Shown: one piece after another, positions 2 through 21,476 of the stretch
Layout of the letters: each line of letters begins with the position of its first letter
Numbering within the stretch: the stretch's first letter is position 1
Assembly: GCA_035387745.1 (NCBI GenBank)
Contig: DAOOON010000010.1
Span: 2,157-24,351, forward strand
DNA: 22,195 nt
Direction of reading: 5' to 3'
Source of the DNA: an archaeon
GTDB taxonomy: Archaea; Iainarchaeota; Iainarchaeia; Iainarchaeales; CSSED10-239
Translations under genes and position numbers: made by a program
The notes under the pieces: model-generated
Databases searched by the model: none
Seen by the model: only the letters and a program-made list of their open reading frames with translations
What the model was told of the DNA's origin: nothing

Positions 2-3000
2 AATCCTCAGACCACTAGCGATAAAACAGAAAAACCAAAGAAAGGTTTCCCAAAAATTGCATTTATTCTTATTGCAGCAATTGTTTTGATAATAATCTTA
101 ATATTATTATTTAGTGGTGGCAAAAAAACACTAGGAGTATATGTAGTAGATGAGCAAAACTATTCGCTTGGTGGCGTAAATGTGTCATTAAACAACGAAA
201 TAACCCAAAGCACAGATGCTTTTGGTTACACAGAGTTCAAAGACCTAAAATTTAAAGATGTAGAAATAAAAGCCACAAAAGAAAGCTACACTACTCAAAC
301 AAAACAAATAAAACTAAATAAAAAACTACAAGAAGAAACTATAACTCTTAAAGTGGATACAACATCTGCGGAATTTAGAGGAATCACTTCTGAGAGACGC
401 AGAGAAATAATTTTTAAAAGCTACGATGTAGTTGTAACAGACAGTCTAAATGTTACTTTTAAATGTTCTAATTCTGAAAAGATTCCAGAACCAAGAGCAA
501 CAACAGTAACAAATGGAAGAACAAATGTATTACAACCTAGTAATTGTGGTTCTTTATTAGTAAGTGTAACGTCTTCAAACTATGAATTAATAACAGATAG
601 AAATATTAACGAAAATAACATAGTTGAACTAACTAGAGTAAATACAAATACTGGAATGTTAGAAGTTACAGTTAAAGACATTAGCGGGCAAGCAGTGCCT
701 TATACTAATCTAAGACTAAATAATATAGATGATTTACAAACTTCAACAAACGAATCAGACATAACGTTTAGCACAGGAATAACAGATATTTATGGGAAGT
801 ATAAGTTTAATGTGCCACAATCAAATTATCTTTTGTCAATAGATAAAACAGGATATATAAGCCTTCCAAAACTAGGACCATATAATATTATTAATAATAA
901 TCTAACAACAGCAAGTATTACTTTAATTACTGCTTCTGATTTAGCAAATCTTAATTGTTCAAACCCAATATATGCGCCATTTTGTAAAGATGGAGAAATT
1001 GATTGTAATAGCCAATTATTAACAGGTTTAGTTACTCCTAATCCAAACGGAACGGGCTGTACAATAGGGAGACTAACTAATTTAATTGTTAAACTAAAGG
1101 ATCAAAATACAAGTGCGCCAGTTACAGGAAATATTTCAGTTTATAGAAGAGACCAAAACGTTTTAAGTTTAATTACAACAAGAAGAGATGTAAATCAAAC
1201 AACTTTTGTTCTTAATGCAAGTAATCATTACAAAATACTTGTATCTAACACAGAGGATAATGGTTATTTACCACCAACACCAATAGATGTCAATAATCTT
1301 TCAGCAGATACAAACACAACTATAGAGATTCCTTTAGAATATCTCTCTTCATTAAATAGCGGAAGCATAAATGTTAATGTAACAAAAAACGGTTATAAAA
1401 GAGCAAATGCATTAGTTTATTTGTTTTATGAGTTAGATGACGAATATGTGTTATACAATCCAGAAAATCCAAAAAGCACAAATTCAAATGGAGATGCAAA
1501 TTTTGAATTTATAAGAAGTAACAGAGAATATTATGCTTATGCAATATTAAGAAACGAAAGTGCAGACGGGGACTCTCTACCAACACAAGAACTTGATAAT
1601 AATGATATTTTAGAATTAGAGGTGTCTTTAAGTAATCAATCAAAAACTCTTAATCTTAAAATAACCCCAAGTCAAGACTATAATATTTCTTTTTTTGAAG
1701 TTTCAGGAGAACAAATTCCAACAGAAAGCGTAGTTTCTACTAATGTTACAGGAGATACAAACAAAACCTTTGTTTTTAATTGTGGAGAAGAGTGTTCAAG
1801 AATATATTTGATTATTGAAAAAGGAGACACATTATATCAAACAGACCTGATATCGCTATTTCCTGGACAAGTTGCATACAAAGAAATAGCCTTCCCTACA
1901 ACGTTATCAGAAATTCAAACAACCACTTCCTTTTTAGGCCTTTATGATTCAACAGGCACAATAGAGATAGACAATTTAACTTTTTCAGGTGATAATGATC
2001 TAACAAAAGAATACAAAATTAAATTTAAAACTGTATTTGGTTCAGACAGAACAGATGTAATAAAGAAAGCATTTATTAAAGCAGGGAGATATCTAACAGA
2101 GAATGCGGATTTTATTTATTTAACAAATACTGACCTGTTTGTACCAGAAGACACAGATATAATCACTGGCTGTAGATATCATGGGGATTTAGAATCTTGG
2201 GATAGCAATTATTTTATTACAAACTTTGAATCAGATTATTCTTTTAACAACTGTACTGCAGGAAAATATAAGTGGCTAGAGTTTGATTTTAGTGATATTA
2301 ATGCAAACATTATAGAATATTCAGTAAATATTAAATTCAAAAACGAGATTACCACAATTGACAATTACAAAATCTATTACAGATCAATAAATTCAAATTT
2401 AGAAACCTTCTCCTTTTCTCCAAATCTTTCAAACTGGAACGACTGGTCAATAAGACCAGAAGGATATTTCTATGCGCCAACACAAGTAGAAGCAATGCCT
2501 TTTGATAATTCTAATTATTCGCACGTAGTTAAGTTATATGACCAAAATGGAGAACTAACTAAATTCGGTTCAGATTATATACTTTATATTGATAACGACT
2601 ACAATTATAGTTTAAGTTTCATACAGTTTTCCGATACCAATAGAACAGGAGACATAATTACAGATAGTCAAAACACAAACGAAAACTATGTTTTTACAAA
2701 TAGTTATTTTAAAGACAAAACTTCAACAAATCCAATTATACAAACAATAGACAATAATATTTCTTTTAATATTTCTTCAAAAACCACAAGCATCGGTTAT
2801 TGCTTTATTAATTATTTAATAGGCAAACCAATAGATTTCTTTTCATTAACCGGTCAGCCAGCACTAAGAACACAGTTATTTAAAAACAATAGCTCATCTT
2901 TAGCAACTGCTTTAACAAATGTGTTATCTTATTCAGAAAGCGCATATGTTCCAGTTGTTACTTCCAAAGCAACAGATAGAGAAATCTATGTTGGTTCTAA

Positions 3001-5908
3001 TGATCTTAATATAAGTTTAAAGAACAGTACAGGCAACTTTGAGAATAATGTCTTAGTGAAATATATAATCTCTGGTCAAACAATTGCTACAGATCTAGGA
3101 GAAATTACTAATAACATATTAAATACAGAAATATTTATTCCTTTAGAAGAGTCAGGAAAAACCATAACTTTTATTTTTACAATCCTTAATTCTAATCTTC
3201 CAAACAACGAATTAACCTTATCAAAAATTATAGGAACCGGCATAGAAATCTATGATCTTAATAATAATTTAATAACAAACAATAATAGATTAGGATATGA
3301 TATTCTTTTAACAAATATTTCTGGGGAGAAAAAAGCATCAGAATCAGTTAAAGACTATATTATAAAGAATAATATAAATAGAGAAGTAAAATTAGAAAAC
3401 GTTTCTATTTCTGATAGCGAGGCATTTTTAGAAGAAGAAATTAATCAAAATTTAATATCAGTTAATGAGTTACCAAAAGACTTAAACCAAAGTAATGTGA
3501 TTTCTGCAGGATTATTTATTGATTCAAATACAAATATTCAAGATATTAATTTTAATTACAATAATTTATTAACCATAAAAAATACAGGAGATATGCCAGA
3601 CATAACACTTTACAAAGACACAAACTCTTATGCAAGAATTAAAATATTAAATATTCAAGACTTTTCTAAGTTTACAACAACTAATGTTAATGGTTTTTAT
3701 GAAGATACAAACGGTTCAGGAATAGAGCTAATAAAAGATGTTATTAGTAATATTTCAATAAGTTATGATCTTAATCTATTATTTACAAGCCCTGTAAACT
3801 ATGATATTTTAGACACACAGATTGTTGGAGAAGACATCTCTAATTATATTAATTTTACTCAAGCACACACAAATAATTTATCTCAAAATAGATTGCTTGG
3901 AAATTTCAATTTTACATTTGTTCTAAAAAATATTAATTTTACAGAAATTATAGAAAAAGACGCAAATATAAACATAAAGATTGGTAATCAAACAGAAAAT
4001 TTTAGTTATGAGATTCCTATAAAAATAACACTATATCCAAAAAATAAAAGTTATAACTTAGCCTCTCAAGGTACACATCTAGCTATTGCTTGTAAAGAAG
4101 AAAACGATTGTAATTCTACGCTAGTCTATACTCTTAAAAACAACACAAGAAGTTATGATTTAAATTTAACAGGAATACAACTACAAGACTCTAATCCGCT
4201 TACTTATAATGTGGCATCGGAAATTCAAATTCCTATAAGTATAACTCAAAATGAGATTCCAATAATAATTGATGGAAACTATATCAATCTAAGAACAATC
4301 CCGGAGTTACATAAAATCTTTACTAAACAAATGAATTTTTCTCTAAATATTAATAATGTGCCAATCACAGAAACAAAACCACTAACCATAATTGTAACAT
4401 ATATTCCAGAAGATCCAGAAACAGAATTAAGTAACACAGGAATTACAAGTAATTTCTGTATGGGCGTAGGCGGACAAGCACAAGGTAGAGATTATGTAAT
4501 TTTAGGTATTTGTGATAACGGAGAGCAAGAGATGTGCAGTGTTGGAGAATCTGCTCTTCCAAAAGTATTATATCAATGGAGAGACCACACACAGAATTGG
4601 CAAACCCTTTGTATAGATAATCAAGAAGAATATGATACAAACAAAATACACTGTGATTCTGTACAAGCACTGTATTCAATATTTACATTAATTAGTTCTT
4701 CAGATTATGATGTAGACCAGAATTATTTTATTTATTTAATGTATGATGGAATAGAATCAGAAGATTTATTAGAGGATTTTAGAGAGCATTACAATCAATT
4801 CATTACGCACAATATTTCATCAATATTTTCAGAAAGATATTTAGATTTATATCACGATAATGAAATTACAATAACAAAAAGAACGCCGAACGATACGCCT
4901 ACAAAAGAAGTTGGAAAATATAAGATAGTGATTAATAATTTCGATTCTTTATTTACAAATAATCTTAATATCAACTTAGAATTAGTTCAGAATATCCCAT
5001 TAAATAAGAATAATCTATTCTATTATATACCAATAGATGGAGACTTTGGAGTAACAAATAATAAGGCACATAGAATTGGTTATGGTTCAACTATTGTTGG
5101 AGATTATGATTATTCAGATTTATTAGTAACTGAACCCTCTCCAACAAACATTAAATTATATGAGAAGCAAGAAAATTGTACCGATGATTGTTCAGGAGTA
5201 ACAAACATTACTGCAAGCTATCCAAATAACTATCTAGTAAATTGGCAAGTTGAAGATGTTTTAAAATCTAATGGCAATTTATTAGATTTAGCAGTAGACA
5301 ACACAACAGATTTTGAAAAGAAAAACATAGTATTTAATTTCACGCCTTCAAAACCAGTACAAGTGTTTGCAAGAGTAAATGGTATAAATAGTAAGAACTT
5401 TAACTATAAACTAATGATTAATGATCAATTCTCAGTAAGCACAGCAAATCTGATTAAGTGGAAAGAGTTTTCAGATTCCAATTACGATAATACTATAGAT
5501 GATGCATCAGTTTTTGGGCAACATGCAAACTATTTAAGACACGAGCTTACAAAAGAGAAATTCAAAAGCAAATTTGGAAATAATTTAGCCGCGAAATATT
5601 TGTTAGAATCAATGATTTATTTGCCAGTAAATATAGAATATTCTAATATTAAATTAACATTATTAGATTTAGATAATAATCTAGAATCTAAACTATATGG
5701 AATAAATAGTTTAGAGGGAACTACAGAATTAGCCATAACCTCTAAGGTTTCAGATATCTATTCAATAAATCAAATATTAAACCAAGTAAAAGACGGAAAT
5801 GCTTGTATCTCAAATACCTTGTCTAGTTCAAAAATTAAATGGGTTACAAAAAAGATTGAAATCCCACAAGGTTATAGATACCAAATAGAAAGCAATTATA
5901 ATAATTAA
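2..5908 (+). CDS. Giant membrane-anchored surface protein, paralog A (5'-partial, at least 1968 aa visible); multi CarboxypepD_reg-like beta-sandwich repeats plus a conserved Cys-rich C-terminal module
   Basis: The frame is open from nt 2 (NPQTTSDKTEKPKKGFPKIAFILIAAIVLIIILILLFSGG...). The TTG at 86 in the ORF track therefore sits inside a TM helix, and the real start is upstream of the window. The protein is collinear with the 2191-aa ORF at 10293..16868 along its whole length, for example KESYTTQTKQIKL vs KESYNTQTKELKL, PEGYFYAP vs PEGYFYSP, FIYLMYDG vs FIYLMSDG and YYIPIDGDFG vs YYLPIDGDLG. Repeated V.V.D..G.P..GA.V...TD..G.Y.F units resemble carboxypeptidase-regulatory-like domains. TAA stop at 5906-5908. 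Confidence 0.9.
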   Translation, partial: NPQTTSDKTEKPKKGFPKIAFILIAAIVLIIILILLFSGGKKTLGVYVVDEQNYSLGGVNVSLNNEITQSTDAFGYTEFKDLKFKDVEIKATKESYTTQTKQIKLNKKLQEETITLKVDTTSAEFRGITSERRREIIFKSYDVVVTDSLNVTFKCSNSEKIPEPRATTVTNGRTNVLQPSNCGSLLVSVTSSNYELITDRNINENNIVELTRVNTNTGMLEVTVKDISGQAVPYTNLRLNNIDDLQTSTNESDITFSTGITDIYGKYKFNVPQSNYLLSIDKTGYISLPKLGPYNIINNNLTTASITLITASDLANLNCSNPIYAPFCKDGEIDCNSQLLTGLVTPNPNGTGCTIGRLTNLIVKLKDQNTSAPVTGNISVYRRDQNVLSLITTRRDVNQTTFVLNASNHYKILVSNTEDNGYLPPTPIDVNNLSADTNTTIEIPLEYLSSLNSGSINVNVTKNGYKRANALVYLFYELDDEYVLYNPENPKSTNSNGDANFEFIRSNREYYAYAILRNESADGDSLPTQELDNNDILELEVSLSNQSKTLNLKITPSQDYNISFFEVSGEQIPTESVVSTNVTGDTNKTFVFNCGEECSRIYLIIEKGDTLYQTDLISLFPGQVAYKEIAFPTTLSEIQTTTSFLGLYDSTGTIEIDNLTFSGDNDLTKEYKIKFKTVFGSDRTDVIKKAFIKAGRYLTENADFIYLTNTDLFVPEDTDIITGCRYHGDLESWDSNYFITNFESDYSFNNCTAGKYKWLEFDFSDINANIIEYSVNIKFKNEITTIDNYKIYYRSINSNLETFSFSPNLSNWNDWSIRPEGYFYAPTQVEAMPFDNSNYSHVVKLYDQNGELTKFGSDYILYIDNDYNYSLSFIQFSDTNRTGDIITDSQNTNENYVFTNSYFKDKTSTNPIIQTIDNNISFNISSKTTSIGYCFINYLIGKPIDFFSLTGQPALRTQLFKNNSSSLATALTNVLSYSESAYVPVVTSKATDREIYVGSNDLNISLKNSTGNFENNVLVKYIISGQTIATDLGEITNNILNTEIFIPLEESGKTITFIFTILNSNLPNNELTLSKIIGTGIEIYDLNNNLITNNNRLGYDILLTNISGEKKASESVKDYIIKNNINREVKLENVSISDSEAFLEEEINQNLISVNELPKDLNQSNVISAGLFIDSNTNIQDINFNYNNLLTIKNTGDMPDITLYKDTNSYARIKILNIQDFSKFTTTNVNGFYEDTNGSGIELIKDVISNISISYDLNLLFTSPVNYDILDTQIVGEDISNYINFTQAHTNNLSQNRLLGNFNFTFVLKNINFTEIIEKDANINIKIGNQTENFSYEIPIKITLYPKNKSYNLASQGTHLAIACKEENDCNSTLVYTLKNNTRSYDLNLTGIQLQDSNPLTYNVASEIQIPISITQNEIPIIIDGNYINLRTIPELHKIFTKQMNFSLNINNVPITETKPLTIIVTYIPEDPETELSNTGITSNFCMGVGGQAQGRDYVILGICDNGEQEMCSVGESALPKVLYQWRDHTQNWQTLCIDNQEEYDTNKIHCDSVQALYSIFTLISSSDYDVDQNYFIYLMYDGIESEDLLEDFREHYNQFITHNISSIFSERYLDLYHDNEITITKRTPNDTPTKEVGKYKIVINNFDSLFTNNLNINLELVQNIPLNKNNLFYYIPIDGDFGVTNNKAHRIGYGSTIVGDYDYSDLLVTEPSPTNIKLYEKQENCTDDCSGVTNITASYPNNYLVNWQVEDVLKSNGNLLDLAVDNTTDFEKKNIVFNFTPSKPVQVFARVNGINSKNFNYKLMINDQFSVSTANLIKWKEFSDSNYDNTIDDASVFGQHANYLRHELTKEKFKSKFGNNLAAKYLLESMIYLPVNIEYSNIKLTLLDLDNNLESKLYGINSLEGTTELAITSKVSDIYSINQILNQVKDGNACISNTLSSSKIKWVTKKIEIPQGYRYQIESNYNN

Positions 5909-5942
5909 GATTAAAAATTAAATTAACAACTGTGAGAAGGCA

Positions 5943-6479
5943 ATGAAAAAAGAAAAACTTACATTATTTATCTGGGGATTTATTATTTTCTTTTTAGGCC
6001 TTATTTTTGCTTTATCTTTTGTGCATACAACAACCAGCATATCAAGACAAAATCAAGAATATCTAAATTATAAGCTGTATTCGGCAAGAGAATTAAATCA
6101 TTTTAGAAATGACTTTAATCAATCTGCAGAAGAATTAATATTTTTTAGAGTTTCAACATATCCAAAAACAACAAAAAGCCAGATCTTTGCTTTTAAAAAA
6201 GAAGATTTTCAAAAATATACTGAAAAATTAAGTTTGCAGTCAGTAAATGGAGATCTTTTTATTGTGATTTCAAAAAACAGTTTAGAAGATAAAATAAAGA
6301 TTAAAGATCAAATAACCGATATTGAAATTCCGCTTATAGAATATTTAAAGACTGGTGCAAATTATACTGGTGGAAATATTACTACTAATTTTTGTCCATG
6401 TTTTGAATTTAGTTCAAAAGCCATTTATCATCTTTATGACTGTAAAGACTGGGGCTGTAGATTAAGCATAATTAAATGA
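5943..6479 (+). CDS. Hypothetical N-terminally membrane-anchored or secreted protein (178 aa), Cys-containing C-terminus
   Basis: ATG lies 34 nt after the giant gene and is preceded by GAGAAGG. The N-terminus MKKEKLTLFIWGFIIFFLGLIFALSF is basic then hydrophobic (signal anchor). The C-terminus has CPC...C...C. No family recognised. Confidence 0.7.
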   Translation: MKKEKLTLFIWGFIIFFLGLIFALSFVHTTTSISRQNQEYLNYKLYSARELNHFRNDFNQSAEELIFFRVSTYPKTTKSQIFAFKKEDFQKYTEKLSLQSVNGDLFIVISKNSLEDKIKIKDQITDIEIPLIEYLKTGANYTGGNITTNFCPCFEFSSKAIYHLYDCKDWGCRLSIIK

Positions 6480-6515
6480 TTTTATCTAAAATCCTCCTGT
6501 TTTATCCATGAGAAG

Positions 6516-6548
6516 TTATATAAATATATTTAAGTAATATATTATATA
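6516..6548 (+). promoter_or_regulatory. Candidate archaeal TATA-box region for the downstream operon (two TATA-like elements)
   Basis: This is the only sizeable intergenic gap (175 nt) in the surface locus. TTATATAAATATA lies at 6516-6528 and TATATTATATA at 6538-6548. The second element is centred about 30 nt upstream of the micro-ORF ATG at 6574. TATA-like strings are frequent in AT-rich DNA, so this is weak. Confidence 0.3.
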
Positions 6549-6573
6549 GTAAATAGGGGAAAAAAGAGAATAT

Positions 6574-6645
6574 ATGAAATTAACTCTAAAGGCAATTATA
6601 GTTATACTCATAATAGAATTTATTGTTTTATTATTATTTTGGTGA
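6574..6645 (+). CDS. Possible 23-aa hydrophobic micro-protein (MKLTLKAIIVILIIEFIVLLLFW)
   Basis: ATG..TGA micro-ORF, not in the ORF track. It forms a single TM-like helix. It is in the same frame as the 459-aa gene and separated from it by TGA plus 3 codons. Coding status is unproven. Confidence 0.25.
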   Translation: MKLTLKAIIVILIIEFIVLLLFW

Positions 6646-6654
6646 TTAATAAAA

Positions 6655-8034
6655 ATGTCAATTACAAATTGCAAAAACAGAGGATTATTATTAATAGTAG
6701 TAATAGTAATTGCAGTTTTCTTTGTAAACAATGTCTTTGCAATAAATCCAGAAATATTAGGATTAAAACAATCGCATCTTGAAAGTATAATCTGCAATTA
6801 CAGTTCTCAAACAAATAATTGTGTTCTTGAGGGCGGAGACTATAACATAACTGGAGAAATATCTCCTGAGACTTCGAATATAAATTTAGTAATTAATCAA
6901 GACACCAATTTTAATGTTTCTTGTGTAAGCTCAAATTCAGTAGATAATAATTGTTACATAATGGGAGACGAAAACAGAATAGACGTTGTTTTTTCTGATT
7001 TTAATTCTATTACTATCGATTCTAATGTTAAGATTAATATTAATAGAGAGCATCTAATAGACACAAAACTTGAATTTAAAAACCTTGATTTAATTATTAA
7101 TGGAAGATTAGATATAACCAAAGATAATAATGCTTGTTTAGGAGAGGCATATACTAACGGATATTTATACTCATATATCCCTAAAATAGAGGTTTTTTTT
7201 GATAAATTAGAGGTAGGTAATAACGGAATATTAAATACCCAAATTAAAAAAGATTATCAGGGATATGATGTTGGTTGTGGCAGTTATGATAGTTTAACTA
7301 ATCTGTTATCATCAATAGAGGATACCGATTGGCAAGCGGGAGAAGTAACTAATCTGTTTGTAGATAAGATTAGTTTTAATGATGTTATAAATAATGGCGT
7401 TATTAATTTAAACTGCCAAACAAAAGTGGATAATACAATATATAAATATGATAATTGTAATTTTTATTTTAATAATTTGGCAGTTAACTTGCCAAAAAAG
7501 GTAATTAATGCAAATAATTATGGCATATTATTTGTCTCGACTTGTGGGCCAATATATTTACCTGACAATGTAGATTATAATATTTGTAAATTAAATTATA
7601 TAAGACCAGATACAAATGTGATTGATTTAAATAATGCAAATACTGGTGTAGCAATAATAAATAAAGTAAACAAATTTTGTGTTAAAGGTAGTATCTCTGA
7701 TCAGATATCTGAATATCTTTTTACTAGCGATTCAAACATCGAATCAAGACCAGTAATCTTTGGGACAATTAATTCTGCAATTACCTCTCAACCACTTGAT
7801 GTTTCTTTAGCCTCTGATAATAATTCAGGACTATATAATACAAAAAATATAAATCAAAGAATTTCTCCAATATCCCAAACAGAAAATATTTTCTTTAAGT
7901 TGTTTTTACCAAACAACTATTCAACAGATACAAATCTATTAGATTCATATCTATTTAGATTTAAATTAAATAGTAATTCACAAGTTGGCTATCCAGAAAT
8001 TGGACTAGATTATCCATTTAAAATACACAAATAA
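6655..8034 (+). CDS. Secreted beta-solenoid-like protein (459 aa), glycine-poor paralog of the 745-aa protein
   Basis: Sec-type signal peptide MSITNCKNRGLLLIVVIVIAVFFVNNVFA|IN. Motifs shared with the next gene: FNDVINNGVINLN vs LYNFINGVININ, LNYIRPD vs INYLRPG, and C-terminal YLFRFKLNSNSQ vs YLLRFRLQSQAD. Asn/Ile-rich repeats of the xNIxIx type. Confidence 0.85.
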   Translation: MSITNCKNRGLLLIVVIVIAVFFVNNVFAINPEILGLKQSHLESIICNYSSQTNNCVLEGGDYNITGEISPETSNINLVINQDTNFNVSCVSSNSVDNNCYIMGDENRIDVVFSDFNSITIDSNVKININREHLIDTKLEFKNLDLIINGRLDITKDNNACLGEAYTNGYLYSYIPKIEVFFDKLEVGNNGILNTQIKKDYQGYDVGCGSYDSLTNLLSSIEDTDWQAGEVTNLFVDKISFNDVINNGVINLNCQTKVDNTIYKYDNCNFYFNNLAVNLPKKVINANNYGILFVSTCGPIYLPDNVDYNICKLNYIRPDTNVIDLNNANTGVAIINKVNKFCVKGSISDQISEYLFTSDSNIESRPVIFGTINSAITSQPLDVSLASDNNSGLYNTKNINQRISPISQTENIFFKLFLPNNYSTDTNLLDSYLFRFKLNSNSQVGYPEIGLDYPFKIHK

Positions 8035-8048
8035 TAGAAAGATAAAAA

Positions 8049-10286: not shown

Positions 10287-10292
10287 TAGATT

Positions 10293-13200
10293 ATGAATGA
10301 AAAAGAAGAACAAGTAGAGAAAGTCTACAATATGCTTAAAGGCAAAGAAAATCGATTTTCAAAAGATGAACTAGAAAGATTAATAGTCTTTGATGGCTAT
10401 GATAAAGATATCGCTAAAAGAGTAGTTAAAAAATTATATGATAATAAACCAAAAGAAGAAAAGCCAATAACAACAACGCCACAAGAAAAAGAAAAGATTC
10501 TAGCGGAGATTTCTAAATCTTTAAAGGGCGGTTCAGAAGAGAAGCCACCACTTGTGGCGCCAAAAAAAGACAACAAACGCATATTTTCAATAATAGGAAA
10601 TTTCTTTAAGAAGATATATTTCTTTTTTGAAGATATTTATTATTCAATGATTGATGGCATAAATAAATTTATACCGATAAGTAAACTAGTGGATGGAATA
10701 GACAAGGTATTTCCCAGTTTTATTTTATTTTTAATATTTATTATTGCTATAATTTGGTTAATATTTTTTTCTGGAGTTTTTGGCGGTCTACTGGGCTCTC
10801 CAGTATTAGAAATTACTGTAACAGACAGTTTAGATATGCCAATTTCGGGAGCTACAGCAATATTATCAATTGGGGACCTTAATAAAACCTCCCAAACAGA
10901 TGTTTTTGGAGAAACTATCTTTCAAGACTTTGGTAAGAAAAAGGACGTTAAATTAATTATACAAAAAGAATCATACAATACACAAACAAAAGAACTAAAA
11001 CTTAAAAATGGAAATAATTCCGTAGTAGTAAAATTAGATATAGATACAACTACACAATTACATCTACTAGCAGCAAGAACCAGAAATTTAGTTTTTAAAG
11101 AAAATGATATACTATTGGCTACAAGACCTATCTTAGTAAATTTACGCTGTGCAAATTCCGGTACAATTCCTGAACCAAACTCTACAAGCATAAATTCTGG
11201 CCAATTACCTGTTAATATTCCAACCGGTTGCGGAGATTTAAGAGTAGATGTTTCTTCTGAATATTATAATTCTATTCAGAATACATTGGTTCCAGAAAAT
11301 AATGTAATTATGTTAACCCCAATAGCACAAAACTACGGCACTTTAGAAATAACAGTAAGAGATCAAAATACACAAGCAGCAATTTCAGATGTGTTTTTAC
11401 AATTATATAAACCGGACGACCCAACAACACAGATTAATGAATCAAATCTAGTGGTTTCTTCAGGAACTACAACAGTTTATGGTACTTATGTATTTACTAA
11501 TTTAACGCCAGGGGCATATACGGTTTCTGCAAACAAGAGTGGGTACACCTCATCTTTAAATAGAGTTGGGCCATACCAAATATCGATTAATAATAACACG
11601 ATTGGAAACATAATATTATCAACTGGTGGGAAAACATTAAATGTAGTTTTAGTTGATATAAATGGAAATACGGAAAGAGAGATAAAAGGAGATATCACAG
11701 TTTATACAAAAAGAACAGATACTAATGTAGTTACAGCAATAGGCACAAGAGAAGACACAAATAGAGCAACATTTTCTTTACCAGTAAACTCTAGCGGAGT
11801 AACTTATAAATTAGCAGTACAAAATACTGAAAATTCAGGTTATTATGCTCCAGACATAATGGATTTAAATTATTTTGATAATAATACAACAATAACAATT
11901 CAATTAGAATATTCTTCAGCATTAAATACTGGAAAAATAGGAGTTAATGTTTCTAGAAGTACATACAAAGTAGTTGGAGCGAGCGTATATATTTTTAGAG
12001 AAAATCACGACGATATACCTATTGCAGGTCCGCATATCACAAATAATAGTGGCGATTGTAATTTCTCACTTATTAGATCGGGAAGGAAATATTTTGCTTA
12101 TGTTATTAAAAGTCCAGAACAAGGTGTATCTGAGGTTAAAAAATTAGATGCTAATGATTATATGGAACTAAATGTTGAATTAGAAGATCAAGCAACGATA
12201 TTAAATCTTAAAGTGATGCCCACAATTGATTATAATATTTTATTTTTTAAATCAAATGGCGATGAGGTTACTGAATTTGTAGTTACAAACACCTCTCAAG
12301 ATTCAAACAAAGAATATATTTTTAGAGATTCGGCATATAATATGTATGCAATAATTAGTGCAAACGGTAAAGCAACATATCAAACTAGTTTAATAACATT
12401 AATTCCTGGACAAAGAATTTATCGTTCAGTCTCTCTATCAAACACAAGAACCGAAGCATTTTCAAATATTGAATTATTAGGCATATATGATGAAAGTGGA
12501 AATATTGATAAAAATATAATTAATCTTGCAACAGATTATTCAAAGACCTTTAAATTAAAATTTAAATTAACAACAATAAATCAAGAGAATAGAGATAAAT
12601 CTTATGCTTATATTAGGGCAGGTAAAAGAGTGGCTTTACCATCAGATTATTTAAGATTAGAAAACGTAATAGCATTTGAAACCGAAAACGAATATGGTTG
12701 TAATTTCTCTGGAGAAACAACAGACTGGAATCAAGTTCATTTCTTAGCATATGACGATATTGATCATTCTCAAGCAAATTGTTCAGCATCACCTTCTGGC
12801 TTTAAGTGGGTAAAGATTGACTTTTCTGATTCTGACGCAGAACAGATAGAATTCTTCGTAGATTTTAAATTTCAAAATGGCATAACTAATTTATCAGATT
12901 ATATAATTTATTATAAAAGCTTAACTGAAACAGAAGACGAAGAATATAAATTAAGTCCTAATTTAAGTAATTCTTGGCAAGAATGCGATATGATTCCTGA
13001 AGGATATTTTTATAGTCCATATTACAATAGAGCACTAACATTTGATAATTCAGATTATGCATTCTTATATGATATTTATGATTACAATTCAGCAACAAAC
13101 ACAATTGGTCAAAGATTATCTCTACTTGGTAGCAAATACATTTTAGAAATAGGTAATAACTACAATTATGCTCAAAAAATGCTATATCTAAAGAATAGCT

Positions 13201-16200
13201 CAGCAAATGGATCTATATTGGCTACATCTTATAATACTTATAATCATTTACTATACAACGCATATAAATTAAAGATAAGAAATCAGTCTAGCAACACTCA
13301 AACAGATATTAATGTAACAGGAATTAATGTAGTGAATTATACAATATTCGATATAGATGCAAGTCTTGCAACTCAAATAGACCACAATTCTGTATTTACC
13401 CCAATCGATTTCTTTATTAATTATTCTACTGGCGGATCTAATCAAAATAGTAATTCTATTAATCAAAACAATAATTCTAATCAAGGAAATATTGCCGGAA
13501 TGGCAAGTGCCACATTAAACCCACAAGAAAATGGCACAAATTATGATTTAAATACTGATTCTAATTTAGCTACAAACTTATTAAATATCTCTGGATTAAA
13601 TCCTTATTCTGTTCCAGTTTTAGCATATTATCCTGCAGATGCCAATGTAATTATAGAAATTATTACTGGAGATGCAACAGGAAATAATGACATATATGCG
13701 GGAGATAATAATATTAGTTTTAGAGTTAGAAATATTTCTGGTAGTCCAATATCAGGAGTAAGAATATCGTCAACAGTTTATTCTCCACAAGCAATAATAT
13801 TTGGTACAACAAACTCTAATGGCCTACTATCAAATAAAAATTTGTCTTTACCACTATCAAAATTAGGGAGCAGCATTAATTTTAGTTTTTTGTTTCCTGC
13901 AAATTTTGGATTTTCGAATAATACTGTAGTAATATCTAAACAAATAAAATCAAGCTATAGATTATTCTTAGAAGATGGAACTGAAATTTCTCAAGGTAAC
14001 GCCATACAATACAATGTCGGGAGATATATGAATAATGGGCAATTGAAATTTACAAAAGCAGAAAAAAATTATTATATAAAAGGGACAAACCAAGTTTCCG
14101 GTAGGCTTATTGCAGCAGATCCATATCCTAATCCAACGCAATATTTAGATTTCCAGGATATAAATAATTATATTTATACAGAAAATAATGTTCCCTTATA
14201 TTTATCAGATTTAAATAAAGAAATAAAAACGAGAATTTCAATATTGAATTTTCCAAATTTAGATGACAACACAAATCCACTACAAGATCCAAAAGGACAA
14301 TCCCAAAACAATACAATACAAAATAAATTAGAAAATGCAGAGTATACTTCTGTAACTGGGGGCTATCATAACATAATTAATGCAGGAAATTATAATAATC
14401 TGCCAATAAGATTAGATCTTAATGCTCCTTTTAATACTAATCTATTCTTTAATCTAAATTTAGAAACCTCATTTGTGGGTTTACCAAAACCAGGAGTTAA
14501 AGAATCAACAGAAGGCGCTTATGATTTAATTATAGAACTAATAAAAAACAGACATTCAAATATTAACTTCAATATGGCAATAGCAAATGGTTCAGATAAT
14601 AGATTATTGGTTGATGCAATTCCAGTTATTGATTCATCATTAAATGGTTATATAACTGTGACAACAAATGATATAAATATTCCGTCAAGATCAGGAAATC
14701 AATTATCTATAGCAATTGATTTAAATAATAGTAAAATAATAACTTCTGATTTAAGAAATAAGCCATTAATTATTAATCTAAACTATACAATAAATGGCGT
14801 AACTTTTACAGAGCCAATTTCAATTAAGATTAATGTTTATGATAGTAATGATGCGTTTGTTATTAATCAACCAACCATAAAAACAATGGATTGTACAGCT
14901 AATGATTGTAATACAGAGATAGTAGTTTCTGCAACAAACAAAACTAGAACTTATGATTTTAATTTAAGTAGTATTAATGTATTGCAACCAGATAATAATC
15001 TTTCAATAACTGTTTCTCCACCACTGCCACCAATAATTATAAATTCACAACAGACAGATAATATAAAAGAGATAACATTAAAAGTATCTGGAAATTATAA
15101 TCTATTAAAAGGAAACACTAGTGGTTCAGAATATATGAGAGTAATACAAGAAGAAATAACTAAAACTATAAAATATAATTATAAGATAATTGGTTCAATG
15201 GAAGTTGGATTAACAAACCAAAATTTTGATATAAATAAAAATACAAATTTTAAGATATCTATTTGGTTACAAAACATTCAAGAATTATTAAGAGAAAACG
15301 GATTATACGGAAATATTTGTCTGGGTGTTGGCGGCATAAATATTAATCAACCAACAGGATTCTATATATTAGGTAATTGTGATACCGAAGGACAAAATGA
15401 TTGTAAGAACGGAGCAGACGCTAAACCAAAAATAATATATGATTGGTCAGACCAAACAGATTGGAAAACAGAATGTATAGAAAACACCAGCGAGGATTAC
15501 AATGAGCAAAAGACACATTGTGATTCTTTACAGATGTTATTTAGCGTATTTAAGTTAATTGAAAATAGTACGAGCAATGATATAAGTGGCAATAAATTCA
15601 TTTATCTAATGAGTGACGGAGTAACAAAAGATCTATTATCTGACTTTGTAAATAATACTGAATTTATGTATTCCGCATCTACAAATTGGGACAATCAGGA
15701 TTTACTATCTGATGCAAATATTGATGCTAATAGATTTAGTATATCAAAAACAGAAATAGATAGTGCAGGTAATGAAATAACTACTCTCAAACCAGGGAAA
15801 TATAAAATAACAATAGAAAATTTTATAAAAGGTCAACCAAAGCCGCTACACATAAAACTGGAACTAGTAAGAGAAATGCCATATACAATGAGAAATTTAT
15901 TATACTATTTACCAATAGATGGAGATTTAGGAATTATTGGTAATAATGAACAAAATAAAAGATCAGCAAGAGATGGTTATGGTTCTTCTTTAACACAAAG
16001 TTCAAAAAAAGGTTTGCCTGTTGAGATAGGGACGGGTGCCAGCCAAAAAGAATATTATATTTATCCAATAGTTAATGATGAAAATAAAAGTAGAGCAATT
16101 ATAAATTTACAAAATGACTCAAATAATTTCAAAAATACATTAAGATCTGAAGGTAAATTATTAGACCTGGCTCTTACAAATATAGATTCGAGTGATCAAT

Positions 16201-16868
16201 CCTTTAATATTAATATGACCTATTCTCCAAGCTATCCAATACCGCTTTATGCGAAAGTAGTAAATAGTGATGTTTCTGGTTTAAGTTATAAATTAAAGAA
16301 AGATGAAATAAATGATGTTGCAATAAATTTTACTAATTTCCTAGTGTGGCAAGATTATAGTAATGAAAATAGGATTTTATCAGATGGGCAATATTATAGT
16401 GGTGTAGGAGTTTATTATAAATCGATGATTGATGGTTTGAAATTTAAATCAGTTTATGGCGAAAATAATCAGATTAAATTATTAAAAACAATGATGTATT
16501 GGCCAATGAATTATTATGCGGGGGATATTCCAAATATAAATTTAGTATTAAGCGATAATGGTTCAAATTGTTGTGGCAACAATCCTGAATCAAAAATATA
16601 TTCTTTAGTAAATTTAAATGGTTCTTCAACTAATGTAGGAAACATAAAAAACATAACAAGAGCGAATTCAACCCTTGGGACAGTAGATTTAAAAGATCTT
16701 TTAGATTATATAGATAATAATGCATGTATTAGAAGTGGACTTACAGTTACAACAATAAAATGGATAGATGAAAATGTGGGCTTTACACCAGAACAAGCAA
16801 ACCAAATAATTGAAAATTCAGGGGTGTCTGGTATTAATGATAATCCCACAAACGAAATAATTAATTAA
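10293..16868 (+). CDS. Giant membrane-anchored surface protein, paralog B (2191 aa): cytoplasmic N-terminal ~140 aa, one TM helix, then extracellular beta-sandwich repeats and the conserved Cys-rich module
   Basis: ATG lies 6 nt after the TGA-TAG stop of the previous gene. The N-terminus is charged (MNEKEEQVEKVYNMLKGKENRF...KPKEEKP...) and is followed by the TM helix FPSFILFLIFIIAIIWLIFFSGVFGG. It is collinear with paralog A and has a unique N/Q/S-rich linker (GGSNQNSNSINQNNNSNQGNIAG). Confidence 0.92.
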   Translation: MNEKEEQVEKVYNMLKGKENRFSKDELERLIVFDGYDKDIAKRVVKKLYDNKPKEEKPITTTPQEKEKILAEISKSLKGGSEEKPPLVAPKKDNKRIFSIIGNFFKKIYFFFEDIYYSMIDGINKFIPISKLVDGIDKVFPSFILFLIFIIAIIWLIFFSGVFGGLLGSPVLEITVTDSLDMPISGATAILSIGDLNKTSQTDVFGETIFQDFGKKKDVKLIIQKESYNTQTKELKLKNGNNSVVVKLDIDTTTQLHLLAARTRNLVFKENDILLATRPILVNLRCANSGTIPEPNSTSINSGQLPVNIPTGCGDLRVDVSSEYYNSIQNTLVPENNVIMLTPIAQNYGTLEITVRDQNTQAAISDVFLQLYKPDDPTTQINESNLVVSSGTTTVYGTYVFTNLTPGAYTVSANKSGYTSSLNRVGPYQISINNNTIGNIILSTGGKTLNVVLVDINGNTEREIKGDITVYTKRTDTNVVTAIGTREDTNRATFSLPVNSSGVTYKLAVQNTENSGYYAPDIMDLNYFDNNTTITIQLEYSSALNTGKIGVNVSRSTYKVVGASVYIFRENHDDIPIAGPHITNNSGDCNFSLIRSGRKYFAYVIKSPEQGVSEVKKLDANDYMELNVELEDQATILNLKVMPTIDYNILFFKSNGDEVTEFVVTNTSQDSNKEYIFRDSAYNMYAIISANGKATYQTSLITLIPGQRIYRSVSLSNTRTEAFSNIELLGIYDESGNIDKNIINLATDYSKTFKLKFKLTTINQENRDKSYAYIRAGKRVALPSDYLRLENVIAFETENEYGCNFSGETTDWNQVHFLAYDDIDHSQANCSASPSGFKWVKIDFSDSDAEQIEFFVDFKFQNGITNLSDYIIYYKSLTETEDEEYKLSPNLSNSWQECDMIPEGYFYSPYYNRALTFDNSDYAFLYDIYDYNSATNTIGQRLSLLGSKYILEIGNNYNYAQKMLYLKNSSANGSILATSYNTYNHLLYNAYKLKIRNQSSNTQTDINVTGINVVNYTIFDIDASLATQIDHNSVFTPIDFFINYSTGGSNQNSNSINQNNNSNQGNIAGMASATLNPQENGTNYDLNTDSNLATNLLNISGLNPYSVPVLAYYPADANVIIEIITGDATGNNDIYAGDNNISFRVRNISGSPISGVRISSTVYSPQAIIFGTTNSNGLLSNKNLSLPLSKLGSSINFSFLFPANFGFSNNTVVISKQIKSSYRLFLEDGTEISQGNAIQYNVGRYMNNGQLKFTKAEKNYYIKGTNQVSGRLIAADPYPNPTQYLDFQDINNYIYTENNVPLYLSDLNKEIKTRISILNFPNLDDNTNPLQDPKGQSQNNTIQNKLENAEYTSVTGGYHNIINAGNYNNLPIRLDLNAPFNTNLFFNLNLETSFVGLPKPGVKESTEGAYDLIIELIKNRHSNINFNMAIANGSDNRLLVDAIPVIDSSLNGYITVTTNDINIPSRSGNQLSIAIDLNNSKIITSDLRNKPLIINLNYTINGVTFTEPISIKINVYDSNDAFVINQPTIKTMDCTANDCNTEIVVSATNKTRTYDFNLSSINVLQPDNNLSITVSPPLPPIIINSQQTDNIKEITLKVSGNYNLLKGNTSGSEYMRVIQEEITKTIKYNYKIIGSMEVGLTNQNFDINKNTNFKISIWLQNIQELLRENGLYGNICLGVGGININQPTGFYILGNCDTEGQNDCKNGADAKPKIIYDWSDQTDWKTECIENTSEDYNEQKTHCDSLQMLFSVFKLIENSTSNDISGNKFIYLMSDGVTKDLLSDFVNNTEFMYSASTNWDNQDLLSDANIDANRFSISKTEIDSAGNEITTLKPGKYKITIENFIKGQPKPLHIKLELVREMPYTMRNLLYYLPIDGDLGIIGNNEQNKRSARDGYGSSLTQSSKKGLPVEIGTGASQKEYYIYPIVNDENKSRAIINLQNDSNNFKNTLRSEGKLLDLALTNIDSSDQSFNINMTYSPSYPIPLYAKVVNSDVSGLSYKLKKDEINDVAINFTNFLVWQDYSNENRILSDGQYYSGVGVYYKSMIDGLKFKSVYGENNQIKLLKTMMYWPMNYYAGDIPNINLVLSDNGSNCCGNNPESKIYSLVNLNGSSTNVGNIKNITRANSTLGTVDLKDLLDYIDNNACIRSGLTVTTIKWIDENVGFTPEQANQIIENSGVSGINDNPTNEIIN

Positions 16869-16880
16869 GGCAGAATAAAA

Positions 16881-17264
16881 ATGGATTTAACAATATTAGG
16901 TTTTTTAAATGATATGTCGTTTTTACTAAAGCTGGCATTTATAGTATTTATAATTTTATTTGTAAAAGAGAGAATAACTAAAAACTGGCTTGCAATTACA
17001 GCAATTGTTATTGTTTGTATTGTCTTAATATTTTTCTACTGGCCAGTATTTGGGTCGATATATGTTGTATATATATTAATTACAATAGGTATTGGCTCAG
17101 TTCTTGTTGACACTTTCTTTGTAACAATGCAGGAAGGTGCCCCAAAACATAAAGGCGAAGGGCCAAGTCCTCAACAAATGCTTGGGGAGCAGGAACAAGG
17201 ATATGATATGGAACAAACTTTTGCTGCTAGGCAACAGGTAATGAATAGGATGGGTAGAAGATAA
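16881..17264 (+). CDS. Small polytopic membrane protein (127 aa, about 3 TM helices plus a hydrophilic Q/G-rich tail)
   Basis: Starts 12 nt after the giant gene stop. Hydrophobic segments: LLKLAFIVFIILFV, WLAITAIVIVCIVLIFFYW, IYVVYILITIGIGSVLV. No family recognised. Confidence 0.75.
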   Translation: MDLTILGFLNDMSFLLKLAFIVFIILFVKERITKNWLAITAIVIVCIVLIFFYWPVFGSIYVVYILITIGIGSVLVDTFFVTMQEGAPKHKGEGPSPQQMLGEQEQGYDMEQTFAARQQVMNRMGRR

Positions 17265-17608
17265 TGAATGCAAAAGGATTTCTAAATTTCATTCCGTTTT
17301 TAAAAAACGCATCACTAATTTGGAAGATATTAATTGTAATTTTATTAGTTATATTTACTGTGCCACTTGCAGTTTATGCAGTTCCTATACTTAAATATGT
17401 TATAATGATAATTATCGCATTTGTAGTTTACGGAATGGTTGCGCCAGCATTTGGTAATAGCCTATTAACCTTTATAGTTCTAGGGATAATGCTATATTTT
17501 ATATTTAAATATTTTTATGTTGCTACCGGGGCATTTTTATTATATTTCTTTTTAGTTTATGGATTTATGTCAGTACTTATCTGGGGTACTGCAAGGTTTG
17601 GGAGATAA
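17264..17608 (+). CDS. Small polytopic membrane protein (114 aa, about 4 TM helices)
   Basis: The ATG overlaps the upstream TAA (TAATG), which indicates translational coupling. The protein is almost entirely hydrophobic. No family recognised. Confidence 0.75.
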   Translation: MNAKGFLNFIPFLKNASLIWKILIVILLVIFTVPLAVYAVPILKYVIMIIIAFVVYGMVAPAFGNSLLTFIVLGIMLYFIFKYFYVATGAFLLYFFLVYGFMSVLIWGTARFGR

Positions 17609-17621: not shown

Positions 17622-17646
17622 CCATTTAGATTCATATTATTTATGT

Positions 17647-17720
17647 GGATCTATGGTGTAGCCTGGATAGCATGTAAGCTTGCGGAGCTTGCGACTTGGG
17701 TTCAAATCCCAATAGATCCA
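17647..17720 (+). tRNA. tRNA-Arg (anticodon GCG), 74 nt, no intron, CCA not encoded
   Basis: Manual cloverleaf fold. Acceptor GGATCTA/TAGATCC plus discriminator A. D-stem GTGT/GCAT. Anticodon stem TAAGC/GCTTG with loop TTGCGGA (anticodon GCG). T-stem TTGGG/CCCAA with loop TTCAAAT. Confidence 0.88.
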
Positions 17721-17741
17721 TTTTAAAATTTGTGAAAAAAT

Positions 17742-19046: not shown

Positions 19047-19099
19047 AGTTTAGATAGGCATTTTAAATTGTTTCGATTCAAATATTATATAGAAAATAC

Positions 19100-21385: not shown

Positions 21386-21422
21386 GTGACCACAAAATAA
21401 GAAAATGTAGTCAAACAACAGA

Positions 21423-21430
21423 TTTATAAT
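21423..21430 (+). promoter_or_regulatory. Candidate TATA box for the toxin-antitoxin operon
   Basis: TTTATAAT, flanked by TGTAGTCA (21406-21413) and TGTATCA (21437-21443). This is the same arrangement as upstream of fic. Confidence 0.4.
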
Positions 21431-21476
21431 CACTTTGTATCACTAAATGTGTATGAAAGACACAAAAGGTGAGTTT

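What the first reader, a model, noticed from the sequence alone, without database searches (positions are those of the whole stretch)
2..17608. Surface cassette: two giant paralogs bracketing exported beta-solenoid proteins, followed by coupled small membrane proteins
About 80% of the window is one co-directional, tightly packed locus. Gaps are 34, 175, 14, 6 and 12 nt, then a TAATG overlap.

Two N-in/C-out anchored proteins of roughly 2000 aa are collinear paralogs at moderate identity, judged by eye and not computed, so this is an old duplication. They flank three signal-peptide or anchor proteins and are followed by two tiny polytopic membrane proteins. None of the extracellular parts beyond the CarboxypepD_reg-like repeats matches a family I recognise.

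In ultra-small episymbionts (DPANN/CPR), giant surface proteins are the leading candidates for host attachment. A conserved multi-gene cassette like this could be an undescribed adhesion or contact apparatus rather than isolated adhesins.
Basis: partly seen in the sequence, partly recalled or inferred. Interest (0 to 1): 0.78.

Follow-up and report, generated by a model that had tools for sequence, protein, structure and literature searches.

The report
Giant stalk-and-head surface protein cassette
A tiny-genome DPANN archaeon (phylum Iainarchaeota) spends about 3% of its DNA on a conserved cluster of giant membrane-anchored surface proteins, each a long chain of Ig-like domains ending in a head domain that matches no solved structure; these are probably cell-contact fibres, but their function is untested.

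Summary
Positions 2-17608 are one co-directional, tightly packed locus, with gaps of 34, 175, 14, 6 and 12 nt and a TAATG overlap. The two giants are collinear paralogs, 31% identical over about 2100 residues.

The organism is an Iainarchaeota (Diapherotrites, DPANN) archaeon from anaerobic digesters. The cassette is conserved across the phylum, including the complete genome of Ca. Forterrea. It continues upstream of the window, where a third giant and another Gly-rich protein lie.

Each giant has these parts:
- a cytoplasmic N-terminus carrying a strongly conserved 35-residue motif next to the membrane
- one transmembrane helix
- an array of Ig-like or prealbumin-like domains
- a C-terminal module of about 500 aa

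The module's AlphaFold model (pTM 0.77) matches nothing in PDB or BFVD, and no Pfam family covers it. In three other lineages the stalk and the head are separate adjacent genes.

The exported partners evolve fast and are mosaic between strains. The two small membrane proteins are the best-conserved parts of the cassette.

The most likely reading is a membrane-anchored stalk-and-head fibre for adhesion or cell contact. Function is inferred, not shown. The 'beta-solenoid' label is unverified. This is a new variant of a known kind.

The parts
2..5908 (+). Giant 1 (G1), cut at its 5' end by the window edge; full length 2016 aa. Lineage-specific paralog of G2.
   Evidence: ORF. Full-length copy in L001/L002. 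31% identity to G2. The G1 clade is sister to the G2 clade in an NJ tree.
4361..5905 (+). C-terminal head module of G1 (about 515 aa)
   Evidence: Aligned with the G2 module in A3/A7.
5943..6479 (+). 178 aa protein with one N-terminal hydrophobic segment. Species-specific ORFan, not part of the conserved cassette.
   Evidence: Hydropathy. Found only in L001-L003, and absent from L010/L015 and all more distant loci.
6655..8034 (+). 459 aa exported protein (N-terminal signal-peptide-like segment), fast evolving, no known family
   Evidence: Orthologs at 57, 36 and 25% identity. Only a weak N-terminal profile match to the 745 aa family.
8049..10286 (+). 745 aa exported Gly/Asn-rich repeat protein, with a paralog (690 aa) upstream of G1 outside the window
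   Evidence: No Pfam, NCBIfam or PDB match.
8733..9458 (+). Five Gly/Asn-rich repeats of about 49 residues in the 745 aa protein (residues 229-470), pattern GG..(A/D).F.V...N.G.LN
   Evidence: Regex and spacing analysis; repeat starts at 229, 276, 327, 376 and 425. Fold not modelled.
10293..16868 (+). Giant 2 (G2), 2191 aa. This is the phylum-wide conserved giant that always precedes the two small membrane proteins.
   Evidence: Alignment A1.
10605..10727 (+). Conserved cytoplasmic juxtamembrane motif of G2 (residues about 105-145: KKIYFFFEDxYYxxxDxIxKxIPIxKLxDxIDKVFPSF)
   Evidence: About 50% identical across otherwise 23-25% identical relatives. Motif alignment.
10710..10796 (+). Single transmembrane helix of G2 (residues about 140-168)
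   Evidence: Hydropathy and positive-inside count.
10806..15221 (+). Extracellular stalk of G2: array of prealbumin-like / Ig-like beta-sandwich domains (residues about 172-1643)
   Evidence: Pfam CarboxypepD_reg, SpaA, SdrD_B and Big_1. In the AF2 model, residues 1100-1660 are confident tandem beta-sandwiches. Foldseek matches only Ig-domain arrays. Residues 172-1100 were not modelled.
15222..16865 (+). C-terminal head module of G2 (548 aa), an orphan fold
   Evidence: AF2 with 24 sequences gives pLDDT 73.7 and pTM 0.77. No PDB or BFVD structural match. No PDB profile match. No Pfam hit in 10 distant members. 276 relatives among 1.84 billion representatives.
16881..17264 (+). 127 aa membrane protein with about three hydrophobic segments and a charged C-terminal tail
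   Evidence: Follows the giant within -4 to +47 nt in every locus.
17264..17608 (+). 114 aa polytopic membrane protein, translationally coupled (TAATG). The best-conserved gene of the cassette.
   Evidence: 94/73/65/44% identity where G2 is 75/41/40/29%.
17646..17721 (+). tRNA-Arg(GCG), marking the downstream boundary of the cassette
   Evidence: ARAGORN and Rfam. Same position in 9 related loci.

Best explanation
The locus is the core of a cell-surface gene cassette found across the phylum Iainarchaeota.

Its main products are giant type-II membrane proteins. Each has a short cytoplasmic N-terminus with a conserved juxtamembrane motif, then one transmembrane helix. Outside the cell comes a stalk that I estimate at about 14 Ig-like/prealbumin-like beta-sandwich domains. 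By rule of thumb that is several tens of nanometres long. The stalk ends in a conserved C-terminal 'head' of about 500 aa.

I infer that the stalk projects the head beyond the cell envelope, where the head binds a ligand on a partner cell or surface. The conserved residues are Trp, Tyr, Asp, Arg, Gln and Cys, and there is no catalytic-looking His, Ser or Glu set.

The exported 459 aa and Gly-rich 745 aa proteins are probably surface-exposed accessory or tip components under diversifying selection. The two small, slowly evolving membrane proteins are probably the membrane-embedded base or assembly partner of the giant.

Shown here: gene order, paralogy, conservation, domain content, the orphan status of the head, and gene fission/fusion of stalk and head. 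Inferred: extracellular location, fibre geometry, the binding function, and the roles of the accessory and small membrane proteins.
For: - Architecture: a single N-terminal TM helix with positive-inside bias and modest sequon excess. CarboxypepD_reg hits in 11 of 11 family members, plus SpaA, SdrD_B and Big_1. Confident tandem beta-sandwiches in the AF2 model, with Foldseek hits only to Ig arrays such as RTX-adhesin extenders, pilins, cadherins and integrins.
- The head is an autonomous module. In L028, L029 and L030 an N-terminal anchor+stalk protein and a signal-peptide protein carrying the head are separate neighbouring genes. The head occurs at the C-end both of 2000-3090 aa giants and of shorter secreted proteins, mostly about 900-1400 aa.
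- The cassette is conserved and tightly spaced across Iainarchaeota.
- Rates fit surface exposure. At 91% HisRS identity, G2 is 75% or 41%, the 459 aa protein 57% or 31%, and the 745 aa protein 56% or about 49% identical, while the 114 aa membrane protein stays at 94% or 73%.
- Strain-level mosaic: a sharp breakpoint just after the G2 TM helix, with a 745 aa allele only 52% identical in an otherwise near-identical strain.
- Investment: about 27 kb in a genome of roughly 0.8 Mb (arithmetic is mine).
Against: - There are no expression, localisation or binding data.
- The head matches no known lectin or adhesin fold, so 'binding' rests on residue composition alone.
- Residues 172-1100 of G2 were not modelled, and neither were the 459 and 745 aa proteins.
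- The whole region is collinear with housekeeping genes, so conserved order does not prove functional linkage of the small membrane proteins. They are absent next to family members in L028-L030.
- Iainarchaeota were originally proposed to be free-living (statement in PMC5905446), so a host-contact role is not a given.
Confidence: 0.5

Rival explanations
1. The giants are the cell envelope itself, that is, S-layer or sheath proteins. They would be anchored by their N-terminal helix and tile the surface, with the head mediating lattice contacts rather than binding foreign ligands.
For: They are core-genome, phylum-wide and occupy a large share of the genome. They are Ig-like-domain rich, as many archaeal S-layer proteins are (10.1101/2024.05.28.596244). 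They carry many sequons. A strongly conserved head could be a self-association domain.
Against: - No S-layer Pfam family, PGF-CTERM or SlaA/SlaB-like match.
- A different 1039 aa protein (A0A2G9N319) is listed as the predicted S-layer protein of a Diapherotrites archaeon. The same preprint assigns MSTP-like S-layer proteins to several other DPANN phyla.
- About 2000 aa, two or three divergent paralogs per genome, and rapid, mosaic evolution are unusual for a lattice protein.
- A linear array of about 14 domains suggests a fibre rather than a tile (inference).
Confidence: 0.2
2. The cassette is a surface shield or capture device rather than a partner-cell adhesin. Long glycosylated fibres would bind polymers or nutrients, or act as decoys or barriers against viruses. 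That would explain the fast-evolving, recombining exported parts.
For: Accelerated divergence and allelic replacement of the exported proteins. Trp/Tyr/Asp-rich invariant positions in the head are compatible with carbohydrate binding.
Against: No carbohydrate-binding module, glycosidase or defence-system signature in Pfam, PADLOC or PHROGs. The same rate pattern is expected for host-recognition adhesins.
Confidence: 0.15
3. There is no multi-protein apparatus. The giants are independent surface proteins, and the two small membrane proteins (and perhaps the 459 and 745 aa proteins) are neighbours only because this genome region is collinear across the phylum.
For: HU, tRNA-Arg, tRNA-His, HisRS, Fic, AlaRS, ProRS and DNA ligase keep the same order in the same loci. 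The small membrane proteins are not found next to family members in L028-L030. The accessory proteins differ between lineages.
Against: The giant and the two membrane protein genes are separated by -4 to +47 nt, or overlap, in every locus across HisRS divergence down to 61%. A tRNA gene separates them from the housekeeping genes downstream.
Confidence: 0.15

Closest known systems
Bacterial giant repeat adhesins with Ig-like extenders (RTX/BIg adhesins such as LapA, SiiE, MpIBP)
   Same: An anchor at one end, a long extender of tandem Ig-like domains, and a distinct distal module. Foldseek places the G2 stalk next to an RTX-adhesin extender (6xi1) among other Ig arrays.
   Different: No RTX nonapeptide repeats and no type I secretion genes. 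The anchor is an N-terminal transmembrane helix in an archaeal membrane. The distal module is an orphan fold.
Gram-positive surface proteins with prealbumin-like B repeats (SpaA pilins, SdrD)
   Same: Pfam SpaA and SdrD_B models hit the stalk domains.
   Different: No LPXTG or sortase signal, no pilin polymerisation motifs, and a single-chain giant (sequence).
SPEARE and other giant surface proteins of DPANN (Nanohaloarchaeota)
   Same: Very large predicted surface proteins in an ultra-small DPANN archaeon, proposed to act in cell contact (from my own knowledge of the literature; PMC10266531 surfaced but I did not read it).
   Different: No serine protease, restriction endonuclease or other enzymatic domain detected. 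No sequence relationship found.
Predicted archaeal membrane complex around arCOG01314 (Makarova et al. 2015, PMC5898192)
   Same: Clusters of membrane or secreted proteins with Ig-like domains together with small 2-5 TM proteins, predicted from gene neighbourhoods.
   Different: Its defining MoxR-type AAA+ ATPase, vWA-domain proteins and DUF4350 protein are absent from this cassette.
Archaeal S-layer proteins (MSTP-like in DPANN)
   Same: Glycosylation-sequon-rich, beta-sandwich-rich envelope proteins.
   Different: No match to S-layer families. A separate 1039 aa S-layer protein is predicted for a Diapherotrites archaeon.
Parallel beta-helix surface proteins with GGA(I/L/V)/FxxN repeats (chlamydial Pmp type)
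   Same: The 745 aa protein has five repeats with GG..A.F.V...N.G.LN periodicity.
   Different: The Pfam and NCBIfam scans returned no hit at all for this protein, so no Pmp/POMP-repeat model matched. The repeat length is about 49 rather than about 25 residues. The fold was not modelled.

Membership tests
RTX / type I secreted giant adhesins | C-terminal GGxGxDxUx nonapeptide repeats and an adjacent ABC transporter / membrane-fusion protein | tested here: not met
   No RTX/HemolysinCabind Pfam hit in any of the seven proteins. No transporter genes in the window or in related loci.
RTX / type I secreted giant adhesins | Long extender of tandem Ig-like domains | tested here: met
   AF2 model of G2 1100-1660 and Foldseek hits to Ig arrays including 6xi1. 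Pfam beta-sandwich families.
Archaeal S-layer proteins | Match to an S-layer family (MSTP/DUF1608, SlaA/SlaB, halobacterial type) or a PGF-CTERM or C-terminal anchor | tested here: not met
   The Pfam and NCBIfam scans list no such family. The anchor is N-terminal.
Archaeal S-layer proteins | Forms the 2-D lattice and is among the most abundant proteins | not testable with these tools
   Needs proteomics or cryo-ET.
Archaeal type IV pilin-like (class III signal peptide) surface proteins | Short charged N-terminus, a [KR][GA] cleavage site directly before the hydrophobic segment, and a pilus ATPase / TadC nearby | tested here: not met
   G2 has a cytoplasmic N-terminus of about 140 residues, and ...DKVFPSF precedes the helix. 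No ATPase or TadC in the loci. A Peptidase_A24-like gene follows the giant in only one distant locus, L028.
SPEARE proteins of Nanohaloarchaeota | Serine protease, adhesion and restriction-endonuclease domains in one giant protein | tested here: not met
   No protease or endonuclease family detected.
arCOG01314-associated predicted secretion/membrane complex | DUF4350 membrane protein, MoxR AAA+ ATPase and vWA-domain proteins in the neighbourhood | tested here: not met
   None present in the window or in flanks of up to 10 kb in relatives. Definition taken from PMC5898192.
Pmp-type parallel beta-helix (beta-solenoid) proteins | Repeated GGA(I/L/V) and FxxN motifs recognised by the Pmp/POMP repeat models; a beta-helix fold | tested here: inconclusive
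   Five motif-like repeats, but no family model hit and no structure model.
Anti-phage defence systems / phage proteins | Match to PADLOC or PHROGs models | tested here: not met
   No hits for any of the seven proteins.

The most novel reading that the evidence does not exclude
The cassette encodes a previously undescribed, Iainarchaeota-specific cell-contact organelle. In this reading:
- A membrane base made of the two small proteins recognises a new cytoplasmic sorting/anchoring motif (YYFFEDxYY...IDKxFPSF).
- It holds long Ig-domain stalks.
- The stalks carry a head of new fold that can also be supplied as a separate secreted subunit.
- Rapidly recombining Gly-rich partners set partner specificity.

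If true, this would be the first genetic handle on the symbiont-side attachment machinery of a DPANN lineage.
Probability: 0.25. Interest if true: 0.75.

Novelty: new variant of a known kind. Interest (0 to 1): 0.55.

Why it matters
How DPANN archaea touch and recognise other cells is an open question. Cryo-ET studies describe attachment organelles, nanotubes and filaments. In the two papers I term-searched, I found no symbiont genes assigned to these structures (PMC11420986, PMC11329633).

This cassette gives a concrete, conserved and heavily invested gene set for one DPANN phylum, and it yields testable parts:
- an orphan-fold head module that can be expressed alone, and occurs naturally as a separate secreted protein in some lineages
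- a very conserved cytoplasmic motif
- two small membrane partners

The cassette also shows strain-level allelic replacement, of the kind expected for recognition molecules. If instead it proves to be a structural envelope layer, it would be a new type of archaeal cell-wall protein.

Tried and rejected
- Sequence and profile searches of the giants and the 745 aa protein against PDB. Result: nothing, apart from non-significant Obg Gly-rich domain matches at E about 0.1-0.6.
- Word-indexed homolog search with the 745 aa protein. It was swamped by Gly-rich words and returned 3 hits only. Repeating the giant search with a profile added one sequence.
- AF2 of the 745 aa protein with a 6-sequence alignment.
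- The first AF2 model (10 sequences) left the head at low confidence. Rebuilding with 24 sequences from the exhaustive search raised pTM to 0.77.
- Profile-profile tests:
  - 459 aa vs 745 aa family: only a weak N-terminal match that includes the signal peptide.
  - 127 vs 114 aa proteins: unrelated.
  - The roughly 570 aa proteins of L028/L029 vs the 459 and 745 aa families: unrelated.
- Search for homologs of the two small membrane proteins in L028/L029: none.
- Sigma-70 promoter/terminator scan: no better than shuffles, and not applicable to archaea.
- Considered and rejected: the arCOG01314 system, phage or defence origin, class III signal peptides, and the canonical DPANN S-layer protein.
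- The Forterrea genome paper does not discuss these genes.
Full report
**Observation.** The window (29% GC) carries seven co-directional ORFs between 2 and 17608. The two giants align collinearly at 31% identity over 2113 columns.

The first giant (G1) runs off the 5' end of the window. Identical contigs show it is 2016 aa.

Each giant has one N-terminal hydrophobic helix. Lys/Arg are more frequent on the N-terminal side, and N-x-S/T sequons are modestly enriched, about 2 sd over shuffles. The 178, 459 and 745 aa proteins each have one N-terminal hydrophobic segment. The 127 and 114 aa proteins are polytopic. A tRNA-Arg(GCG) gene at 17646-17721 follows immediately.

**Source and conservation.** The same DNA occurs in anaerobic-digester metagenomes. 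A scan of one genome per GTDB species found 11 related loci. Every locus whose record names a taxon belongs to Iainarchaeota/Diapherotrites (DPANN), and the rest are labelled only 'archaeon'. They include the complete genome of Ca. Forterrea multitransposorum and a Ca. Iainarchaeum MAG.

Every locus long enough to judge shows the same order:
1. a giant of 2350-2490 aa (G0 type)
2. a small exported protein
3. a Gly-rich protein of 690-816 aa
4. a giant of about 2150 aa (G type)
5. a 120-148 aa membrane protein
6. a 114-120 aa membrane protein
7. tRNA-Arg
8. HU

The window's lineage carries an extra tandem unit. Upstream of the window lie a 2493 aa G0, a 145 aa protein and a 690 aa Gly-rich paralog of the 745 aa protein; the paralogs share 29.5% identity over 325 residues. 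This organism therefore has three giants, and the cassette spans about 27 kb of a genome of roughly 0.8 Mb (contig sizes; arithmetic is mine).

A rough NJ tree, without support values, places the G1 clade as sister to the G2 clade, with the Forterrea-type giants outside. That fits an old but lineage-specific duplication.

The 178 aa gene is restricted to this species.

One caveat applies to all of this. The downstream housekeeping genes (HU, tRNA-His, HisRS, Fic, AlaRS, ProRS, DNA ligase) are collinear too. Conserved order is therefore only partial evidence of functional coupling. The consistently tiny or negative spacing between the giant and the two membrane protein genes is the stronger argument.

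**Anatomy of the giants.** Pfam finds only beta-sandwich families: CarboxypepD_reg in 11 of 11 members, plus SpaA, SdrD_B and Big_1. An AF2 model of G2 1100-2191 gives confident tandem beta-sandwich domains for residues 1100-1660. Foldseek matches only Ig-domain arrays: RTX-adhesin extender, pilins, cadherins, integrins, macroglobulins and hydin-like proteins.

The last 500 or so residues form a separate, evenly conserved module. Its invariant residues include Cys, Trp, Asp, Gln, Arg, Tyr and Gly, in motifs such as YCDSxQF, YLxxDGxSxDFxxDF, YYLPFDGxxG, RxGYG, SPSxPxP and a C-terminal VCI...WWN.

An exhaustive HMMER search of 1.84 billion representatives with a profile of the C-terminal half of G2 (residues 1100-2191) found 276 relatives (117 at E<1e-10). 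Beyond the close orthologs the matches fall in the head module. It sits either at the C-terminus of 2000-3090 aa giants or of shorter proteins, mostly about 900-1400 aa. Ten distant members have no Pfam domain over it. The named members are all 'hypothetical' proteins of Diapherotrites/Iainarchaeum or unclassified archaeal MAGs.

Rebuilt with 24 sequences, the module models at pLDDT 73.7 and pTM 0.77. It has no match in PDB (best E 0.16, TM 0.13 or lower), in BFVD or by profile against PDB sequences. AlphaFold DB was not available.

**Gene fission/fusion.** In three other archaeal loci the giant is split.
- L029: 1302 aa anchor+stalk, a 571 aa protein, then an 1122 aa signal-peptide protein carrying the head.
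- L028: 1491 aa, 576 aa, 934 aa, followed by a full-length 2272 aa giant and a Peptidase_A24-like gene.
- L030: 1470 aa stalk directly followed by a 669 aa head protein (head HMM E 2.5e-25).

This is Rosetta-stone evidence that stalk and head work together, and that the head is an autonomous, secreted-type domain.

**A conserved cytoplasmic motif.** Just before the TM helix, G2, G0 and all split stalk proteins share (K)KIYFFFEDxYYxxxDxIxKxIPIxKLxDxIDKVFPSFILF. It is about 50% identical where the rest of the protein is 23-25% identical. G1 has lost it and instead has a duplicated Lys-rich segment. Its function is unknown. By analogy with signal-peptide motifs of bacterial giant adhesins, I suggest sorting or docking, possibly to the small membrane proteins. 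This is inference only.

**Accessory proteins.** The 745 aa protein has five Gly/Asn-rich repeats of about 49 residues and a conserved Cys-containing C-terminal half shared with the 690 aa paralog. No family or PDB match exists. I could not model it, so 'beta-solenoid' remains a plausible guess.

The 459 aa protein has no such repeats and only a weak N-terminal profile similarity to the 745 aa family.

The 127 and 114 aa proteins are unrelated to each other and have no family match. They are the slowest-evolving genes of the cassette: the 114 aa protein is 94, 73, 65 and 44% identical where G2 is 75, 41, 40 and 29%. They were not found near family members outside Iainarchaeota.

**Evolutionary dynamics.** Against HisRS at 91% identity, the exported proteins are 31-75% identical. 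A strain that is otherwise near-identical (L004) carries a 745 aa allele only 52% identical. In its G2, 82 of the 89 differences fall in the first 200 residues, so there is a recombination breakpoint just after the TM helix. This pattern is typical of surface-exposed recognition or antigenic loci.

**Interpretation.** The best-supported reading is a membrane-anchored stalk-and-head fibre system for adhesion or cell contact. The exported partners would be fast-evolving accessory components, and the two small proteins a conserved membrane base.

The structural statement, that these are surface-exposed Ig-array giants with an orphan head, is well supported. The functional statement is inference, and I give it about 0.5.

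Rivals:
- An S-layer or sheath role. This is weakened by the lack of S-layer signatures and by a different predicted S-layer protein for a Diapherotrites archaeon in 10.1101/2024.05.28.596244.
- A shield or capture role.
- Mere neighbourhood of unrelated genes.

The arCOG01314 predicted complex (PMC5898192), phage and defence origins and pilin-type export do not fit.

**Novelty.** Giant Ig-repeat surface proteins in DPANN are a known kind of thing. What I found no description of:
- the phylum-wide cassette
- the head module, with no Pfam, PDB or BFVD relative
- the stalk/head fission variants
- the juxtamembrane motif
- the two conserved small membrane proteins

The Forterrea genome paper does not mention them. 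Term searches of two DPANN cryo-ET papers found no symbiont genes assigned to the contact structures. I rate it a new variant of a known kind, with interest 0.55.

Noticed in passing
window 17646-17721; L010, L012, L016, L017, L019, L020, L021, L023, L024: tRNA-Arg(GCG) sits directly after the 114 aa membrane protein gene in the window and in all nine related loci examined. It is a fixed boundary between the cassette and the 84 aa/HU genes.
   Followed up: yes
window 19047-19099 vs L010 18506-18579, L017 19031-19104, L023 18034-18106: In relatives a tRNA-His gene lies just upstream of HisRS and a tRNA-Pro just upstream of ProRS, so cognate tRNA and synthetase are adjacent. The window has only 53 nt between the 194 aa gene and HisRS, and no tRNA-His was detected.
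   Followed up: partly
window about 8049-10850 vs L004 1-1800: Strain-level mosaic. L004 is near-identical to the window from about residue 185 of G2 onward. Its 745 aa protein allele is only 52% identical, and 82 of the 89 G2 differences lie in the first 200 residues. This indicates a recombination breakpoint just after the TM helix.
   Followed up: partly
window 2-140 and L001 1191-1440: The N-terminus of G1 contains a tandem duplication of a Lys-rich segment (EKNNPQTTSDKTEKPKKGFPK, twice). It lacks the YYFFED...IDKVFPSF motif that all other family members keep.
   Followed up: partly
L028 16841-17890: In one distant locus a Peptidase_A24 (prepilin-peptidase-like) membrane protein follows the giant, in the position held here by the two small membrane proteins. 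No sequence relation to them was found.
   Followed up: partly
window 18086-18355: A bacterial-type HU DNA-binding protein (Pfam Bac_DNA_binding, E 6e-28) is encoded in this archaeon. It is 69-97% conserved at the same position across the phylum.
   Followed up: no
window 20447-22023: A Fic-domain protein is followed by two overlapping small ORFs (96 and 101 aa) with no Pfam match. The pair is present in some strains (L005, L006, L008, L009) but is replaced by a 33 aa ORF in L004 and is absent in L010. It looks like a small variable, toxin-antitoxin-like insert.
   Followed up: no
window 6574-6645: The 175 nt gap before the 459 aa gene holds a 23-codon ORF encoding a purely hydrophobic peptide (MKLTLKAIIVILIIEFIVLLLFW), preceded by a GGGG-rich stretch. 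I did not check whether it is conserved.
   Followed up: no
L017 vs L010 (both HisRS 91% identical to the window): Two lineages with the same HisRS identity to the window differ greatly in G2 identity (75% vs 41%). This suggests allele exchange of the giant between species-level lineages, or very uneven rates.
   Followed up: no
window 17742-17996: The 84 aa two-TM protein between tRNA-Arg and HU is conserved in the closer relatives (63-88% identity). It gives a weak, sub-threshold Pfam match to the octameric membrane protein family 8xMP (E 0.003).
   Followed up: no
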